A model generated the notes under the pieces. The model did not search any database and was not told the origin of the DNA. It saw nothing but the letters and a program-made list of their open reading frames with translations. Below are positions 1,655 through 9,798 of a stretch of DNA of 12,227 nucleotides, in pieces (position 1 is the first letter of the stretch; every line of letters starts with the position of its first letter). A program made the translations under genes and the position numbers. Source of the DNA: a virus (Duplodnaviria; Heunggongvirae; Uroviricota; Caudoviricetes); IMG/VR virus record IMGVR_UViG_3300018080_000113, positions 128,097 to 140,323 of that record. The stretch is one strand, 5' to 3'.

Positions 1655-2065
1655 ATGAAAAAGAAAAATTACAAAATTCCATTTACATTAGTACCTGCAT
1701 GTCACAACCATCCAGAACGATGGGAGATGGAAGAAGACCCATGGTACAACGAATATGACACAACAACTATTAGACATTATGCAGGAGCAAACACAACTTT
1801 TGATGTTGAATGGAGAGATATTTATGAGTTTGAAACAACAATGGAAATTGTTACGTGGTATCAAAGAAGAAGTAAAGTAAGAGTTGTTCTTAAAGGAGAA
1901 GATCACACGTTGTATTCAACAACATTTAATAGTTTTATGGAAATTATTGAAGCAGGAATTGAAATTAAAGATAATACAATCAGTAAAATGAAATGGACAT
2001 TTGGTAAAAAAGGTCAGTATTATATGGCATTGCCAGTAATAGAGAAGGAGAATAAGAATGGGTAA
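1655..2065 (+). CDS. hypothetical protein
   Basis: ATG at 1655 one base after the ligase stop, GAGG upstream; the longer ORF call from 1583 overlaps the ligase. Confidence 0.75.
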   Translation: MKKKNYKIPFTLVPACHNHPERWEMEEDPWYNEYDTTTIRHYAGANTTFDVEWRDIYEFETTMEIVTWYQRRSKVRVVLKGEDHTLYSTTFNSFMEIIEAGIEIKDNTISKMKWTFGKKGQYYMALPVIEKENKNG

Positions 2066-2813
2066 ACTTCATGAGGTTTTAGCAGTAGAAAAGATGGTGC
2101 AAGAAAATGCACATAAAATTTGGAATGAAGCAATCACTACCTTTACTAAAAAGGCAGAACATTTTAGGGGTTATCATAAAACTCTTAAAATGATTGACGA
2201 AGAGAGACAAGAAGAAGCTCATGGAGTTGAAGAGCATCGAGAGATTGTCACTACTGTTGCCGACAAGCTTAAGTATCTTCGTAGTGCTACTGTAAAGTAC
2301 TTTGATACTTTAGGCCAAAAAGAAACTACCAATCAGATAGCCAAGGCGGATCTTGTAGTTGGAGAAGAAGTTCTTCTTAAGGATGCACCTGCAACTCTGC
2401 TACTAGGTCTTGAGAGCCGTTTGAAGCACCTTAGAGGCGTTATGGTAACAGTTCCTACTCTTGACCCAGGTATTGAGTGGAACAAAGATGAGAGCCAAAG
2501 AGAAGGCATCTATAAGACTGGACGTCCTGAAGCCACTCAGAAACAAGAGAAAGTAATTCGTACTCAAATTGTAGTTGCGCCTACAGAGCAACATCCTGCA
2601 CAGTATGAAAAGTGGACTGAGAACAAAGTTGTTGGCAACTATTTCACTACCAGGTGGAGTGGGTGTGTCACGCCTGCTCAAAAGAGCGAATGGCTTAGTA
2701 GAATTGATGTATTGATTCGTGCTACAGTCAAGGCTCGTCAACGTGCAAATGAAGCCAAGGTCGTAAAAGTAGACGTTGGCTCTAAGCTCTTCGATTTTGT
2801 GTTCGGAGAGTAA
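2058..2813 (+). CDS. conserved protein of unknown function (resembles the DUF7873-type family)
   Basis: 251 aa, AAGGAG upstream. Pattern MGKLHEVLAVEK..KETTNQIAKADLVV..VPATLLLxLE-like segment..PTLDP..W..HPAQ..VVGNYFTTRWSG..AxxxAN..G.KLFDFVFG matches my recollection of this family; not verified by search. Confidence 0.65.
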   Translation: MGKLHEVLAVEKMVQENAHKIWNEAITTFTKKAEHFRGYHKTLKMIDEERQEEAHGVEEHREIVTTVADKLKYLRSATVKYFDTLGQKETTNQIAKADLVVGEEVLLKDAPATLLLGLESRLKHLRGVMVTVPTLDPGIEWNKDESQREGIYKTGRPEATQKQEKVIRTQIVVAPTEQHPAQYEKWTENKVVGNYFTTRWSGCVTPAQKSEWLSRIDVLIRATVKARQRANEAKVVKVDVGSKLFDFVFGE

Positions 2814-2816
2814 TAA

Positions 2817-2909
2817 GTTTTGGGCTAGTATATTGTTGGTGTCAGACTCAAGCAAGAACGAGCAAACTTGCATTAGTTTCAGAGTATTGCCCAACAGTTT
2901 TAGCCAAAA
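2817..2909 (+). ncRNA. candidate structured RNA domain immediately 3' of the 251-aa gene
   Basis: TTTTGGGCTAG..ATTGTTGG (2817-2839) pairs with CCAACAGT..TTAGCCAAAA (2891-2909); inner helices ACTC/GAGT (2846-49/2882-85) and GCAAG/CTTGC (2852-56/2867-71). Confidence 0.5.
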
Positions 2910-2911
2910 GA

Positions 2912-3086
2912 AGGTTCGATTTAGATGATAGGATTTAGGTTCTGTGTTAGGCAGGGCCACCTTTCGGAGGTCGCTGGTTCAAATCCAGCCGAATGCACCA
3001 TGCCAGTAAATACATGCATTTGTAGCTCAGGGGTCAGAGTACCGAAAGTATTTGTCAGTAAAAAACCTATTCAATCAAAAGAACCT
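2912..3086 (+). ncRNA. circularly permuted tRNA-like RNA (Y RNA YrlA-like architecture)
   Basis: 3' half first: CTTTCGG AGGTC GCTGG TTCAAAT CCAGC CGAATGC A CCA (2961-3000); 15-nt linker; then 5' half GCATTTG TA GCTC AGGGGTCA GAGT A CCGAAAG (3016-3048). Acceptor 7/7 pairs, D stem, T arm and 7-bp CCGAAAG/CTTTCGG stem all form; irregular stem continues to AGGTTC/GAACCT (2912-17/3081-86). Confidence 0.85.
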
Positions 3087-3096
3087 GTACTGGCAC

Positions 3097-3160
3097 TGTG
3101 GGCCTAGGTGATTATATTACAAGGTGATGTAACTATATTTAATGATCCTAGTAACCCACA
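3097..3160 (+). ncRNA. long hairpin between the permuted element and tRNA-Val
   Basis: TGTGGG/CCCACA (3097-3102/3155-60), CTAGG/CCTAG (3104-08/3147-51), GATAT/ATATT, TTACA/TGTAA (3117-21/3128-32). Confidence 0.45.
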
Positions 3161-3163
3161 TTT

Positions 3164-3237
3164 GGACGCTTAGCTCAGCTGGTAGTAGCGCCGCCTTTAC
3201 ATGGCGGAGGTCGTGGGTTCAAGTCCCACAGTGTTCA
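3164..3237 (+). tRNA. trnV: tRNA-Val(TAC)
   Basis: Acceptor GGACGCT/AGTGTTC, anticodon arm CCGCC-TTTACAT-GGCGG, T arm GTGGG-TTCAAGT-CCCAC; extra T in D arm; no CCA (CAA). Confidence 0.9.
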
Positions 3238-3238
3238 C

Positions 3239-4398: not shown

Positions 4399-5769
4399 AT
4401 GGCAGTGCTTGATGTTTTACTACCAAAACAAATTGAAGAACTTGATAGAGAAATTCAAGAAGTTGGTGGCACTGCCTACATAGTAGGTGGTGCTGTTCTT
4501 GATCTTATTAGCCGCAAAGAAGTAAAGGACTGGGATATTGAAGTTGCAGGTCTTAGTTATGAGCAACTACTTAAGGTATCAGGAGAAGAAGCAGACCTAA
4601 TAGGTGCTAAGTTTGGTGTTGTTAAGGTTAATAGAGATGGTCTTGATATTGAATTGGCGACACCAAGAGTTGAGAATAGCACTGGGCCAAAACATATAGA
4701 CTTTGATATTAAACTTGCTCCTACTCTATCTATTGAGGAAGCAGCAGTAAGAAGAGATTTTACAATGAATGCTGTTTACTTTGAGATAGGCAACAGGAAG
4801 GTTCATGATCCATATGGTGGATTGAAGGACTATCGTAGAGGTATTGTGTCTCATATTAGTGATGATACATTTATTGAAGACCCATTGCGTGTCTTTAGAG
4901 CAATGCAATTTGTTGCTCGGAAATGTAAAAGAGTAGCTAAAGAAACTACAGGTTTGTGTTCTACAATGAAAGATATGTGCAAAGAACTTACAGGAGACAG
5001 TATCTATGGTGAGTTTGTTAAGATGCTGATGCTATCTGACAGGCCCGACAGAGGACTAAGATTTCTTGAAGAGAGTGGGATCATTAATATGTTTCCAGAG
5101 CTTAGCGCACTGATAGATTGTCCACAGAAAGAGAAGTGGCATCCAGAAGGAGATGCCTGGACTCATACTCAAATGGTTGTACGAGAAGCAGCTCAATATA
5201 GAGATGAACTTCCTGAAGAATGGAAGCTTCCCTTTATGTTCGGAATGCTTCTACATGATGTTGGTAAGCCAATAACACTAGACCCAAAGAAACTTACTAC
5301 TTATAGCCATGACTATAAAGGCATGCCAATTGCTAGAACTTTCATGGAGCGGCTCACCAAGAATGAAAAACTCATTAAAAGAGTTGAACGAATTGTTGGT
5401 ACTCACATGAGAGCAAAGACGTACCTAAAGTCCAAGGCTAAAGCTTCTGCATGGAGAAAACTACACAACCAATGTCCTTTGCATGTATTGGCATATGTTT
5501 CTGTTTGTGACCTGGATGGGAGAGGAATTGATCCTTCTGCTCGTGAAGGCAAAAAAGCTACTGTCTTTAAAGAGTGTATGCGTATGCACAATGCAATTGG
5601 ATCTTATCCTGATGATATTCCTCCTGTGTTGTTGGGCAGACATCTAATTGAAGCAGGACATAAACCTGGTATTGAGTTTGGCACGTTGCTAAACAAAGCA
5701 TATGAAATTCAACTTGAAACTGGCTATACAAACCCACAAGAACTACTTAAGGTTGTTACAAATGGCTGA
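4399..5769 (+). CDS. cca: class II CCA tRNA nucleotidyltransferase with HD domain
   Basis: Motif A VGGAVLD..DWD, RVE loop motif, RRDFTMNA, EDPLRVFRAMQF, HD-domain HPEGDAWTHT..LLHDVGKP; AAGGAG RBS. Confidence 0.93.
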   Translation: MAVLDVLLPKQIEELDREIQEVGGTAYIVGGAVLDLISRKEVKDWDIEVAGLSYEQLLKVSGEEADLIGAKFGVVKVNRDGLDIELATPRVENSTGPKHIDFDIKLAPTLSIEEAAVRRDFTMNAVYFEIGNRKVHDPYGGLKDYRRGIVSHISDDTFIEDPLRVFRAMQFVARKCKRVAKETTGLCSTMKDMCKELTGDSIYGEFVKMLMLSDRPDRGLRFLEESGIINMFPELSALIDCPQKEKWHPEGDAWTHTQMVVREAAQYRDELPEEWKLPFMFGMLLHDVGKPITLDPKKLTTYSHDYKGMPIARTFMERLTKNEKLIKRVERIVGTHMRAKTYLKSKAKASAWRKLHNQCPLHVLAYVSVCDLDGRGIDPSAREGKKATVFKECMRMHNAIGSYPDDIPPVLLGRHLIEAGHKPGIEFGTLLNKAYEIQLETGYTNPQELLKVVTNG

Positions 5770-7702: not shown

Positions 7703-7774
7703 CTAGATGTAGTTTAATCGGTAGAACATCATCCGTAATAGGATGAGATATAGGTTCGAATCCTATCTTCTAGA
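7703..7774 (+). tRNA. atypical tRNA-like element with 8-nt anticodon loop, isotype undetermined
   Basis: Acceptor CTAGATG/CTTCTAG, D arm GTTT/GAAC, stem TCATC/GATGA enclosing CGTAATAG, 3-nt variable loop, T arm ATAGG-TTCGAAT-CCTAT. Confidence 0.6.
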
Positions 7775-7790
7775 CTAAAAGGAGAACATA

Positions 7791-8937: not shown

Positions 8938-9013
8938 GCCCGGTTAGCTCAGATGGATAGAGCGCAACGCTACGAACGTTGGACATGCAGAGGTTCAAGT
9001 CCTCTACTGGGTA
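8938..9013 (+). tRNA. trnR: tRNA-Arg(ACG)
   Basis: Acceptor GCCCGGT/ACTGGGT, D loop with A20, anticodon arm CAACG-CTACGAA-CGTTG, 7-nt variable region. Confidence 0.92.
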
Positions 9014-9027
9014 CTAAAGGAAAAGAA

Positions 9028-9798
9028 ATGTACTATGTAATACAAGAAAATACCTTCAATGAGAAAGGCCATGGTCGTTTAATAGACGGTCTCGAAAGAC
9101 TTAAGCTTCAATATGAAATCATTAAAGTAAAACCTTTTGTTGAAGAGCTAGAGTTTGATACGTTCAGGAAAGATGTGTTTTGTTTTGGCGGAACAAAGAT
9201 GTCTCGTCTTGCTAGTAATTATGGTTGGAAGCCAGGCGTAGTACTAACAAAGAATCATGACTTTATGGTTTATAGAAATTACTATAATGAAAACCTATTA
9301 AACTATGATTCAAATGTATTACAGTTCAGTGAAGACTTTCCTTGGACACAGGGACAGTATTTTATTAGGCCATGTAAAGATGATAAATCATTTGCAGGAC
9401 AAGTATTTGATTTTGCTGACTGGCATAAGTTTCAACATACAGTATTAGAACAAGGCTCAGACTATCATTCTCAGTTAGATAGTAAGACATTGATACAAGT
9501 ATCTCCTGTTAAAAGAATACAAAGAGAGTATAGAATATGGGTTGTTAATGGCAAGATTGTAACTGCTAGCCAGTACAAGCTAGGAACAAGACCGTTCTTT
9601 AGTCCACAGATAGAACCTGATGCTATAACATTTGCTAAAGAAATGGTTGATCTTTATCAACTAGCCGAGGCATTTGTTATAGATATTTGTCTTGCCAACG
9701 ACAAGTGGTACGTTGTAGAGTGTGGATGTATTAACTCTGCTGGATTTTATGAAGCAGACATGCAAAGACTAGTAATAGCTATAGAGGAAGCATTTTAA
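9028..9798 (+). CDS. ATP-grasp domain protein (R2K/DUF4343-like)
   Basis: ATG 9028 after AAGGAA; FIRPCKDDKSFAGQVF, REYRIWVVNGKIVTASQY, FVIDIC..VVECGCINSAGFY match the ATP-grasp R2K-type pattern as I recall it. Confidence 0.8.
   Translation: MYYVIQENTFNEKGHGRLIDGLERLKLQYEIIKVKPFVEELEFDTFRKDVFCFGGTKMSRLASNYGWKPGVVLTKNHDFMVYRNYYNENLLNYDSNVLQFSEDFPWTQGQYFIRPCKDDKSFAGQVFDFADWHKFQHTVLEQGSDYHSQLDSKTLIQVSPVKRIQREYRIWVVNGKIVTASQYKLGTRPFFSPQIEPDAITFAKEMVDLYQLAEAFVIDICLANDKWYVVECGCINSAGFYEADMQRLVIAIEEAF

What the first reader, a model, noticed from the sequence alone, without database searches (positions are those of the whole stretch)
2912..3086. Circularly permuted tRNA mimic with an encoded CCA and no anticodon
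Seen: the 3' half of a tRNA (2961-3000, ending A-CCA) lies upstream of its 5' half (3016-3048). All four arms pair (acceptor GCATTTG/CGAATGC, D stem GCTC/GAGT, T arm, 7-bp CCGAAAG/CTTTCGG). Where the anticodon loop should be, the stem runs on irregularly (GGCAGG/TTTGTC, ATAGG/CCTAT, AGGTTC/GAACCT). Known: this T-acceptor-D order on a long stem is the architecture of bacterial YrlA Y RNAs, which bind Ro60/Rsr; two-piece tmRNA genes are permuted the same way. Inference: either an uncut Y-like elbow decoy or tether, or RNase P cleavage at 3016 plus trimming to 3000 gives a two-piece, CCA-ended, anticodon-less RNA. The acceptor ends resemble E. coli tRNA-Arg(ACG) (GCATCCG..CGGATGCACCA), but there is no A20 and no G3:U70. 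A cloverleaf scanner would probably miss it.
Basis: partly seen in the sequence, partly recalled or inferred. Interest (0 to 1): 0.9.

Follow-up and report, generated by a model that had tools for sequence, protein, structure and literature searches.

The report
Back-to-front tRNA mimic beside DUF7873
This phage encodes a tRNA-shaped non-coding RNA with its two halves in swapped order, a built-in CCA and no anticodon; it belongs to a widespread, apparently undescribed RNA family that follows a gene of unknown function (DUF7873), and it resembles the Y RNAs that partner the Ro60 protein but mostly occurs without Ro60.

Summary
Window 2961-3048 is a complete tRNA body in the order T arm, acceptor 3' strand, ACCA, 15-nt spacer, acceptor 5' strand, D arm. 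It sits on a long irregular stem (2912-3086) and has no anticodon loop.

It is not a one-off. The same module lies 114-300 nt downstream of the DUF7873 gene in 70 of 80 related viral loci and in 16 of 18 MAG loci with enough flank. The T, acceptor and D stems and the tertiary 15:48 pair all covary. NCCA is kept in 57 of 61 members. A covariance model built without the window scores it at 52 bits (E about 5e-17).

The closest known family is YrlA, especially M. smegmatis YrlA, which RNase P cuts and which gains CCA. Three membership tests fail:
- Rfam score is 23.7 against a cut-off of 69.
- The GNCGAA Ro60-binding motif is absent.
- The element lies 17 kb from this phage's rsr gene, which has its own Y RNA cluster, and only 4 of 23 phage records carrying the family encode Ro60.

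DUF7873 matches no known fold. The most likely reading is a Ro60-independent, Y-RNA-like tRNA mimic, probably matured by RNase P. Its function is unknown. This scan has already found the family on many other genomes.

The parts
2058..2813 (+). DUF7873 gene (251 aa), the conserved upstream neighbour of the RNA
   Evidence: Pfam PF25283, E 1.7e-70, full length. 491 homologues found. The AlphaFold model has pLDDT 86 and no named fold match.
2873..2903 (+). Conserved leader: two direct 8-mers (AGTTTCAG 2875-2882 and AGTTTTAG 2896-2903, 21 nt apart) flanking TATTGCCC 2885-2892. It could be part of the RNA or a dedicated DNA control site; this is undecided.
   Evidence: The block is conserved across 55 homologues. 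Identity at the repeat offset is 47% against 20-27% at other offsets, and 3.6 sd above a row shuffle. The combined motif occurs only here in the 140-kb record. A local hairpin for this block is not supported by pair counts.
2912..2917 (+). Outer helix, 5' strand AGGTTC; pairs with 3081-3086
   Evidence: RNAfold minimum-energy and centroid structures.
2918..2937 (+). 5' strand of the irregular stem: internal loop GATTTAGATG, helix strand ATAGG 2928-2932 (pairs with 3066-3070), then ATTTA
   Evidence: The family has a matching 5'-strand element (AGTA/TTAG followed by YTGG) 32-38 nt before the T arm.
2938..2958 (+). Local hairpin GGTTCTGT/GTTAG/GCAGGGCC, an insertion specific to this phage.
   Evidence: Minimum-energy fold. 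Gap columns in most homologues.
2961..2972 (+). Anticodon-like stem 3' strand CTTTCGG (2961-2967) and 5-nt variable loop AGGTC (2968-2972; C2972 is position 48)
   Evidence: In the family this stem pairs in 70-76% of members against a background of about 38%. The G15:C48 / A15:U48 pair covaries 43/16, with 2 exceptions.
2973..2989 (+). T arm GCTGG-TTCAAAT-CCAGC
   Evidence: Covariation. T54, T55, C56 and A58 are invariant in 61 members.
2990..3000 (+). Acceptor 3' strand CGAATGC, discriminator A2997, encoded CCA 2998-3000 (predicted mature 3' end at 3000)
   Evidence: Acceptor pairs show 9-32 double compensatory changes. CCA is present at this position in 57 of 61 members, while the discriminator base is free to vary.
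3001..3015 (+). Spacer capping the acceptor stem (predicted to be removed). It ends in T at position -1.
   Evidence: Spacer length is 7-95 nt across the family. It commonly ends in TAT, and position -1 is T in 36 of 61 members.
3016..3041 (+). Acceptor 5' strand GCATTTG (predicted RNase P site between 3015 and 3016), U8 A9, D arm GCTC-AGGGGTCA-GAGT, A26
   Evidence: In 61 members U8 is 100%, A14 97%, GG in the D loop 100% and A21 95%.
3042..3086 (+). Anticodon-like stem 5' strand CCGAAAG 3042-3048. Then the 3' strand of the long stem: conserved loop with TCAG 3055-3058, CCTAT 3066-3070, ATTCAATCAAAAG 3069-3081 (family consensus ATTCAACGAAAG), GAACCT 3081-3086.
   Evidence: A GAAAG-type motif sits 30-36 nt after the D arm in about 22 of 61 members. 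Cognate flank duplexes average -29.8 kcal/mol against -21.1 for non-cognate pairs.
3091..3103 (+). Possible extra closing helix (TGGC ACTG TGGGC) pairing with leader bases 2889-2906. Seen only in this window's fold.
   Evidence: Minimum-energy fold of 2873-3115, z -2.6. By eye, no matching pairing was seen in relatives.
3164..3238 (+). tRNA-Val(TAC), the first ordinary tRNA after the element. Many relatives also have a tRNA about 100 nt downstream, of varying isotype.

Best explanation
Window 2912-3086, probably with the conserved leader from about 2873, encodes a structured non-coding RNA. Its centre is a complete class-I tRNA body (T arm, 7-bp acceptor stem, D arm, tertiary core) written in circularly permuted order. 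A long bulged stem, made from the RNA's own flanks, stands where the anticodon loop would be.

The element is one member of a large family that sits just downstream of, and on the same strand as, the DUF7873 gene in phages and in MAG contigs. This part is shown here.

The following is inferred:
- The RNA folds into a tRNA-like L shape and is treated as a pre-tRNA by host enzymes.
- RNase P cuts between 3015 and 3016.
- The spacer is trimmed back to the encoded CCA at 3000, or the CCA is repaired by the CCA-adding enzyme encoded at 4399-5769.
- The result is two base-paired pieces: a long-armed, anticodon-less tRNA with a normal 5' phosphate and CCA-3' end.
- It works as a Y-RNA-like scaffold or decoy in tRNA/RNA metabolism during infection. 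Its most likely protein partner is DUF7873, not the phage's Ro60/Rsr.

Its biochemical role is not known.
For: Shown:
- All stems are present in the sequence.
- The module follows DUF7873 in 70 of 80 viral loci and in 16 of 18 MAG loci with enough downstream sequence. The other flanking genes are not conserved: ligase appears in 6 loci and the CCA-adding enzyme in 3.
- The T, acceptor and D stems covary.
- The Levitt pair covaries: G:C in 43 members, A:U in 16, other in 2. The tRNA tertiary bases are invariant.
- The long stem covaries. Cognate flank duplexes average -29.8 kcal/mol against -21.1 for non-cognate pairs, and the cognate partner ranks in the top 3 of 61 in 28 cases.
- NCCA is kept in 57 of 61 members although the discriminator and acceptor sequences vary.
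- A model built without the window scores it at 52.1 bits, the best hit in the whole phage record.
- TROVE/Ro60 is found in only 4 of 23 phage records carrying the family, and in 1 of 11 records at least 90% complete.
- This phage's rsr gene has its own cluster of Ro-motif RNAs beside it, 17 kb away.

Precedent for processing: M. smegmatis YrlA has a 7-bp acceptor stem, is cut by RNase P in vivo and in vitro, and carries CCA (PMC4201824).

Established knowledge: bacterial RNase P recognises the acceptor/T-arm stack and the 3' RCCA, and favours U at position -1. All three are present here.
Against: There are no transcript, end-mapping, binding or processing data for any member, and no RNA run was available.

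DUF7873 has no recognisable RNA-binding fold, and its pI is near neutral (family median 7.0). The protein-RNA partnership therefore rests on gene order alone.

In several relatives the CCA lies inside a hairpin formed by the spacer. A few lack CCA and cap the acceptor stem with a long hairpin. Cleavage may therefore not be universal.

The position directly after a coding gene also fits a cis-acting 3' element.

This phage does encode Rsr, so binding to Rsr cannot be excluded here. A later check recorded in this scan's notes put only about 22 in 100 on the DUF7873-RNA particle reading (e1-2703945).
Confidence: 0.55

Rival explanations
1. It is an ordinary, if divergent, YrlA-type Y RNA. It binds the phage's own Ro60/Rsr through its long stem and tethers it to an effector such as PNPase.
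For: The phage encodes a 542-aa TROVE protein on the same strand. YrlA is the only Rfam family with a structured hit (23.7 bits here, 29-43 bits in relatives, some over the full model). The 5' strand starts with GGTTCGA (2913), which resembles the metazoan GGUCCGA. In three of five phages with both genes, rsr and DUF7873 lie 1-7 kb apart.
Against: The score is far below the gathering cut-off of 69. The same model gives 23.3 bits to a junction of two tandem tRNAs. The GNCGAAN0-1G motif is absent here and present in only 5 of 61 relatives, against about 1.7 expected by chance. The element is 17 kb from rsr, whereas published YrlA genes lie within 4 kb. The rsr gene already has about nine Ro-motif RNAs next to it. 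Nineteen of 23 family-bearing phage records have no TROVE gene.
Confidence: 0.12
2. It is a cis-acting element of the DUF7873 transcript or of the tRNA-cluster precursor. A tRNA-like RNase P site would form and protect the 3' end of the DUF7873 mRNA, or separate it from downstream tRNAs, with no trans-acting RNA-protein particle.
For: The element always lies on the same strand, 114-300 nt after the DUF7873 stop codon, and is often followed by tRNA genes. The only terminator-like site here is weak and overlaps the stop codon. The conserved NCCA and 7-bp acceptor are exactly what RNase P needs.
Against: A processing signal would not need a full D arm, a covarying Levitt pair, a covarying 40-nt stem with sequence-conserved internal loops, or a conserved leader. 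Klebsiella phage FBKp24 carries an annotated promoter between the DUF7873 gene and its two modules.
Confidence: 0.15
3. It is a decoy that soaks up host factors recognising the tRNA elbow and acceptor end, such as tRNA-targeting defence nucleases or end-modifying toxins. This would protect the phage's and the host's real tRNAs.
For: It has a perfect tRNA elbow and CCA end without decoding capacity. It lies in a phage region dense in tRNA genes, a CCA-adding enzyme, tmRNA, Rsr and Band-7 genes. Relatives were also found in MAG contigs, but I did not establish that those are cellular rather than binned phage DNA.
Against: No defence system is known that would be titrated by an anticodon-less tRNA. 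The idea does not explain the conserved long stem or the link to DUF7873. It overlaps with, rather than excludes, the best explanation.
Confidence: 0.08
4. It is a true permuted tRNA or a two-piece tmRNA gene, or simply the junction of two decayed tandem tRNA genes.
For: The gene order matches permuted tRNA genes and two-piece tmRNA. One relative gives a weak beta-tmRNA hit (34.9 bits against a cut-off of 84).
Against: There is no anticodon loop in any member. There is no tag reading frame or pseudoknots, and only about 75 nt separate the stem from tRNA-Val. The D arm is intact and position 3:70 is A:U rather than G:U. ARAGORN finds no permuted tmRNA here but does find a standard tmRNA elsewhere in the phage. 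The two halves are complementary to each other and covary across 55 loci, which a chance junction would not do.
Confidence: 0.02

Closest known systems
YrlA (Y RNA-like A; Rfam RF02553; Chen et al. 2014, PMC4201824), especially Mycobacterium smegmatis YrlA
   Same: A tRNA-like domain in the order T arm, capped acceptor-like stem, D arm, mounted on a stem formed by the RNA's ends. tRNA tertiary bases are present, including a covarying 15:48 pair. M. smegmatis YrlA also has a 7-bp acceptor, is cut by RNase P into two halves, and ends in CCA. Phage-encoded examples exist.
   Different: The score is far below the Rfam cut-off. There is no GNCGAAN0-1G Ro60-binding motif. The element is not next to rsr, and most carriers lack rsr. 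CCA is fully encoded and conserved. The conserved neighbour is DUF7873. The leader and stem-loop motifs differ.
The tRNA-ordered Y RNAs next to this phage's own rsr gene (genome about 114.3-115.0 kb)
   Same: Same genome, and a tRNA body with a long arm replacing the anticodon arm. After RNase P cutting, the element studied here would have the same overall shape.
   Different: Those RNAs have normal tRNA gene order, and their long arm carries the Ro motif (GGGTCGAA...GGTTATC / AACTTACCC) closed by a loop. The element here is permuted, open at the far end of the arm, and lacks that motif.
Two-piece (circularly permuted) tmRNA genes of alpha- and beta-proteobacteria and cyanobacteria
   Same: The T arm, acceptor 3' strand and CCA are encoded upstream of the acceptor 5' strand. 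The two pieces are held together by a long helix. Maturation uses RNase P.
   Different: There is no tag reading frame or pseudoknots. The D arm is complete, and there is no G3:U70. ARAGORN is negative.
Circularly permuted tRNA genes of the red alga Cyanidioschyzon merolae (recalled from memory, not checked here)
   Same: The 3' half is encoded before the 5' half, and the intervening linker is removed at the acceptor ends.
   Different: Those genes yield real decoding tRNAs with an anticodon loop, through a circular intermediate made by the eukaryotic/archaeal splicing machinery. Here no anticodon loop exists.
Ro-independent tRNA-like RNA proposed beside SPFH/Band-7 genes in RNA-repair loci (Burroughs and Aravind 2016; recalled from memory and from scan note e1-2703945; the paper is not in the library)
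   Same: The idea of a tRNA-like RNA partnered with a scaffold protein other than Ro60.
   Different: The neighbour here is DUF7873, which gave no SPFH match. The phage's Band-7 gene is 35 kb away. The RNA features of that proposal could not be compared.

Membership tests
YrlA (RF02553) | tRNA-like module in the order T arm, capped acceptor-like stem, D arm, on a stem formed by the flanks | tested here: met
   The YrlA model aligns positions 23-89 to 2965-3048.
YrlA (RF02553) | tRNA tertiary signature, including compensatory G15:C48 / A15:U48 | tested here: met
   G3030:C2972 in the window. Family counts are 43 G:C, 16 A:U and 2 other. U8, A14, GG, T54-C56 and A58 are conserved.
YrlA (RF02553) | Reaches the Rfam gathering score (69 bits) | tested here: not met
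   23.7 bits here and 29-43 bits in nine relatives. A tandem-tRNA junction scores 23.3 bits.
YrlA (RF02553) | GNCGAAN0-1G Ro60/Rsr-binding motif near the 5' end | tested here: not met
   No match in 2873-2967; the nearest is GGTTCGAT at 2913. Five of 61 relatives match, against about 1.7 expected.
YrlA (RF02553) | Encoded within about 4 kb of rsr on the same strand | tested here: not met
   rsr lies at genome 112.3-113.8 kb and the element at 131.0 kb: same strand, 17 kb apart. Nineteen of 23 family-bearing records have no TROVE hit.
YrlA (RF02553) | Bound by Ro60/Rsr | not testable with these tools
   Needs immunoprecipitation or EMSA.
DUF7873-linked permuted tRNA-mimic RNA (defined in this scan; I found no publication) | Lies shortly downstream of a DUF7873 gene on the same strand | tested here: met
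   The T arm starts 160 nt after the stop codon at 2813. The family range is mostly 114-300 nt.
DUF7873-linked permuted tRNA-mimic RNA (defined in this scan; I found no publication) | Matches a covariance model of the family built without this sequence | tested here: met
   52.1 bits, E about 5.5e-17, full model, and the top hit in the genome. The next best hit is a tandem-tRNA junction at 39 bits.
DUF7873-linked permuted tRNA-mimic RNA (defined in this scan; I found no publication) | NCCA directly after the acceptor 3' strand, and the conserved leader block upstream | tested here: met
   ACCA at 2997-3000, with CCA in 57 of 61 members. Leader at 2873-2903.
Two-piece tmRNA | Tag reading frame with pseudoknots; reduced D arm; G3:U70 | tested here: not met
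   ARAGORN reports no permuted tmRNA here. The D arm is intact and position 3:70 is A:U. tRNA-Val starts 78 nt after the stem.
Permuted tRNA gene | A 7-nt anticodon loop that can be restored by joining the transcript ends | tested here: not met
   The stem runs on for about 40 nt on each side in the window and in relatives. The anticodons ARAGORN reports on rearranged copies are artefacts.
Band-7/SPFH-associated tRNA-like RNA | Adjacent to an SPFH/Band-7 gene | tested here: not met
   The only Band-7 hit is at genome 95,590-96,369, 35 kb away.

The most novel reading that the evidence does not exclude
DUF7873 and this RNA form a ribonucleoprotein that does not need Ro60. RNase P cuts the RNA into a two-piece, CCA-ended, anticodon-less tRNA. 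In this phage the particle would work alongside two other scaffold systems (Rsr with its Y RNAs, and a Band-7 protein) as parallel tRNA-mimic machines for RNA surveillance, repair or counter-defence.
Probability: 0.25. Interest if true: 0.85.

Novelty: new variant of a known kind. Interest (0 to 1): 0.68.

Why it matters
Y RNAs and their tRNA-like bacterial relatives are so far known only as partners of Ro60. This is a deeply conserved tRNA mimic of the same architecture that travels with a different, uncharacterised protein. Its CCA is hard-wired, and it sits in phage tRNA clusters and in MAG contigs assigned to several phyla (possibly binned phage DNA). If confirmed, it would add a second family of tRNA-shaped scaffold RNAs and give DUF7873 a first functional lead. 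It would also show that host tRNA-processing enzymes are routinely borrowed to mature non-decoding RNAs. This phage carries both Rsr/Y RNAs and the DUF7873 RNA, so the two systems can be compared in one genome. In practical terms, the element is missed or mis-annotated in public records; one is labelled a suppressor tRNA in Klebsiella phage FBKp24.

Tried and rejected
- **RNA evidence.** One search for sequencing runs listed no RNA holder, only a DNA run that may be the source sample.
- **Close relatives.** A single-protein scan of viral contigs and an exact 25-mer search both found nothing. The closest protein relative (80% identity) is on record, but its contigs came without DNA.
- **DUF7873 function.** Nothing informative came from any of these:
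  - no PHROG family;
  - no PDB sequence hit;
  - no Foldseek PDB hit with E below 0.001;
  - only uncharacterised AlphaFold DB clusters;
  - VIA-align gave only generic helical matches, Z at most 8.7;
  - the ESM Atlas returned only unnamed clusters.
- **Leader as a local hairpin.** Pair counts are no better than slid controls. Rejected.
- **Leader as a general promoter.** The combined motif is unique in the genome, and no sigma-70-like site was predicted there.
- **Ro-binding motif in the family.** Not enriched.
- **Conserved flanking genes other than DUF7873.** None found.
- **RtcB.** Absent from this 73%-complete record.
- **Burroughs and Aravind 2016.** The paper is not in the library.
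- **Complex prediction.** Not used, because it cannot test protein-RNA binding.

Full report
**Observation**

The sequence at 2961-3048 reads, in order:
- anticodon-like stem 3' strand CTTTCGG;
- a 5-nt variable loop;
- T arm GCTGG-TTCAAAT-CCAGC;
- acceptor 3' strand CGAATGC, then A, then CCA (ending at 3000);
- a 15-nt spacer;
- acceptor 5' strand GCATTTG (starting at 3016), then TA;
- D arm GCTC-AGGGGTCA-GAGT, then A;
- anticodon-like stem 5' strand CCGAAAG.

RNAfold recovers every one of these stems. It closes the whole with ATAGG/CCTAT and AGGTTC/GAACCT (2912-3086). That segment is an insertion absent from most relatives.

ARAGORN and the Rfam tRNA model find 13 ordinary tRNAs in the window but not this element. 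The folding z-scores are modest (-1.8 and -2.6), so the case for reality rests on comparison with relatives.

**Context**

The window is the last 12 kb of a 140-kb IMG/VR phage record, about 73% complete. The region holds the end of an rIIB-like gene, an ATP-dependent ligase, DUF7873 (2058-2813), the element, tRNA-Val, tRNA-Glu, a CCA-adding enzyme (4399-5769) and more tRNAs.

The phage also encodes a 542-aa TROVE/Ro60 (Rsr) protein 17 kb upstream on the same strand. Directly after that gene I confirmed a cluster of RNAs carrying the Ro-binding signature (GGNCGAA...GGTTATC with AACTTAYCC). Four of them have ordinary tRNA gene order, with the Ro helix replacing the anticodon arm.

**The element belongs to a family tied to DUF7873**

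The DUF7873 protein has 491 homologues. With an alignment of 31 of them I fetched 80 viral loci. I scanned them with a simple descriptor: a 5-bp T stem with a TTCRA loop, a 7-nt strand, a gap, a complementary 7-nt strand, and a D arm.

- A permuted module lies downstream of DUF7873 in 70 of 80 loci, mostly 114-300 nt after the stop codon.
- The same holds in 16 of 18 MAG contigs with enough flanking sequence.
- It also holds in cultured Rhizobium phage RHph_TM30 and Klebsiella phage FBKp24. FBKp24 has two tandem modules, and part of the region is annotated there as a suppressor tRNA.
- No other flanking gene is conserved.

**Comparative support for the fold**

- RNAalifold on 55 loci recovers the T arm, the 7-bp acceptor stem and the D stem. 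Each acceptor pair has 9-32 sequences with both sides changed.
- The tertiary Levitt pair covaries: G15:C48 in 43 members, A15:U48 in 16, other in 2.
- U8, A14, the D-loop GG, A21 and T54/T55/C56/A58 are invariant or nearly so.
- The anticodon-like stem pairs in 70-76% of members against a background of about 38%.
- The long flanking stem is more stable between cognate strands than between strands from different loci (-29.8 against -21.1 kcal/mol). The cognate partner ranks in the top 3 of 61 in 28 cases.
- CCA follows the acceptor 3' strand in 57 of 61 members, although the discriminator base and the acceptor sequence vary freely.
- One MAG clade, largely Burkholderiales, has NCCT instead.
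- A covariance model built from 45 relatives, without the window, scores the window element at 52.1 bits (E about 5.5e-17). This is the best hit in the phage. The next best is a junction of two tandem tRNAs at 39 bits.

**Further family anatomy**

Upstream lies a conserved leader (window 2873-2903). It consists of two direct 8-mers 21 nt apart around TATTGCCC. The combined motif is unique in the genome. I could not decide whether it is RNA or a DNA control site, and a local-hairpin model failed.

On the stem's 3' strand there is a conserved loop (T.AG..TGA.A; here TCAG at 3055-3058). In about a third of members there is also a GAAAG-type motif 30-36 nt after the D arm. The window has ATTCAATCAAAAG where relatives have ATTCAACGAAAG.

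**Is it a YrlA Y RNA?**

YrlA is the only Rfam family with a structured hit, but the hit is weak: 23.7 bits against a cut-off of 69. Nine relatives score 29-43 bits. The same model gives 23.3 bits to a tandem-tRNA junction.

The defining Rsr-binding motif GNCGAAN0-1G (PMC4201824) is absent here. It occurs in 5 of 61 relatives against about 1.7 expected.

Published YrlA genes lie within 4 kb of rsr. This element lies 17 kb away, and rsr has its own RNAs beside it. Of 23 phage records that carry the DUF7873 RNA, only 4 have a TROVE hit, and only 1 of the 11 that are at least 90% complete.

So it works like a YrlA in architecture but fails the membership tests. Where both genes occur they are sometimes close (1-7 kb in three of five cases). 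That hints at a shared RNA-metabolism neighbourhood.

**Likely mechanism (inferred)**

The element has everything bacterial RNase P reads in a pre-tRNA: a 7-bp acceptor stacked on a 5-bp T stem, the T-loop/D-loop elbow, a 3' NCCA, and usually U at position -1 (36 of 61; T3015 here).

M. smegmatis YrlA has the same 7-bp acceptor. It is cut by RNase P in vivo and in vitro into two Rsr-bound halves, one of which ends in CCA.

I therefore expect cleavage at 3015/3016 and trimming to CCA at 3000. This would yield a two-piece, long-armed, anticodon-less tRNA. That is the same overall shape as the tRNA-ordered Y RNAs next to rsr, but open at the far end of the arm.

Some relatives bury the CCA in a spacer hairpin, or lack it and extend the acceptor stem. 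Uncut forms are therefore likely in part of the family.

Aminoacylation seems unlikely, because no acceptor identity element is conserved.

**The partner**

The DUF7873 model is confident (pLDDT 86) but matches no named fold or solved structure. Its pI is near neutral. The partnership is thus inferred only from a gene order that is very well conserved. A cis-acting role for the DUF7873 transcript remains a serious rival.

**Other rivals**

Two-piece tmRNA, a true permuted tRNA and a decayed tandem-tRNA junction are all contradicted. There is no tag frame and no anticodon loop, the D arm is intact, and the two halves covary.

**Novelty and standing**

I found no paper on DUF7873, and no Rfam family reaches threshold. 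The idea of a Ro-independent tRNA-like RNA with another scaffold protein has been raised for Band-7 loci (Burroughs and Aravind 2016). I know this from memory and from a scan note, because the paper is not held. The Band-7 gene of this phage is 35 kb away.

This scan has already reported the same family many times on other DNA: 101 notes in at least 84 genomes. A later check there priced the DUF7873-RNA particle reading at about 22 in 100. My results agree with those notes and add three things:
- the within-genome contrast with the Rsr/Y RNA cluster;
- the covarying Levitt pair;
- a leave-one-out model score.

Noticed in passing
genome 113,850-115,300 (L006:1100-2545), 13-15 kb before the window: Directly after the phage's rsr gene lie about nine RNAs with the Ro-binding signature. 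Four have normal tRNA gene order, with the Ro helix (AACTTACCC-loop-GGGTCGAA...GGATTATC) replacing the anticodon arm. Two short ones hit the nematode stem-bulge (Y RNA homologue) family RF01656 weakly. An earlier scan note already reported this cluster.
   Followed up: partly
genome 95,590-97,435 (outside the window): A Band-7/SPFH gene (29 bits, 464-aa frame) lies just upstream of a standard tmRNA (tag GEDYYPMQAAA). tRNA-like hits occur near 98.0 and 102.6 kb. The phage thus carries three candidate RNA-scaffold proteins (Band-7, Rsr, DUF7873) within one 45-kb region rich in tRNA genes.
   Followed up: no
window 4399-5769: A phage-encoded CCA-adding enzyme (PolyA_pol head plus HD domain) lies 1.3 kb downstream of the element. 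The same gene order (ligase, DUF7873, gap, CCA enzyme) is seen in the closest relative's contigs, but not in more distant loci.
   Followed up: partly
window 7703-7775: ARAGORN reports a tRNA with an undetermined isotype and an odd two-base 'anticodon (aa)'. Rfam scores it at 49 bits as a tRNA.
   Followed up: no
window 2873-2903 and the same block in 54 related loci: Two direct 8-mer repeats (consensus A-R-N-N-T-Y-A-G), 21 nt apart, flank TATTG(A)CCC. Within a locus the two copies resemble each other more than the consensus alone explains. The spacing of two helical turns would suit a DNA-binding protein.
   Followed up: partly
L115:2518-2597 (Klebsiella phage vB_KpM_FBKp24, NC_061421): The GenBank record annotates a 'tRNA-Sup-TTA' that overlaps the flank and T arm of the second permuted module. 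This is probably a mis-call caused by this RNA family.
   Followed up: partly
L102, L104-L106, L109, L110, L113 (MAG contigs, largely Burkholderiales): In this clade the acceptor 3' strand is followed by NCCT rather than NCCA. The terminal A would have to be added after trimming.
   Followed up: no
window 8953-9798 and 3-566: An R2K-clade ATP-grasp protein and the C-terminal part of an rIIB-like protein flank the tRNA region.
   Followed up: no
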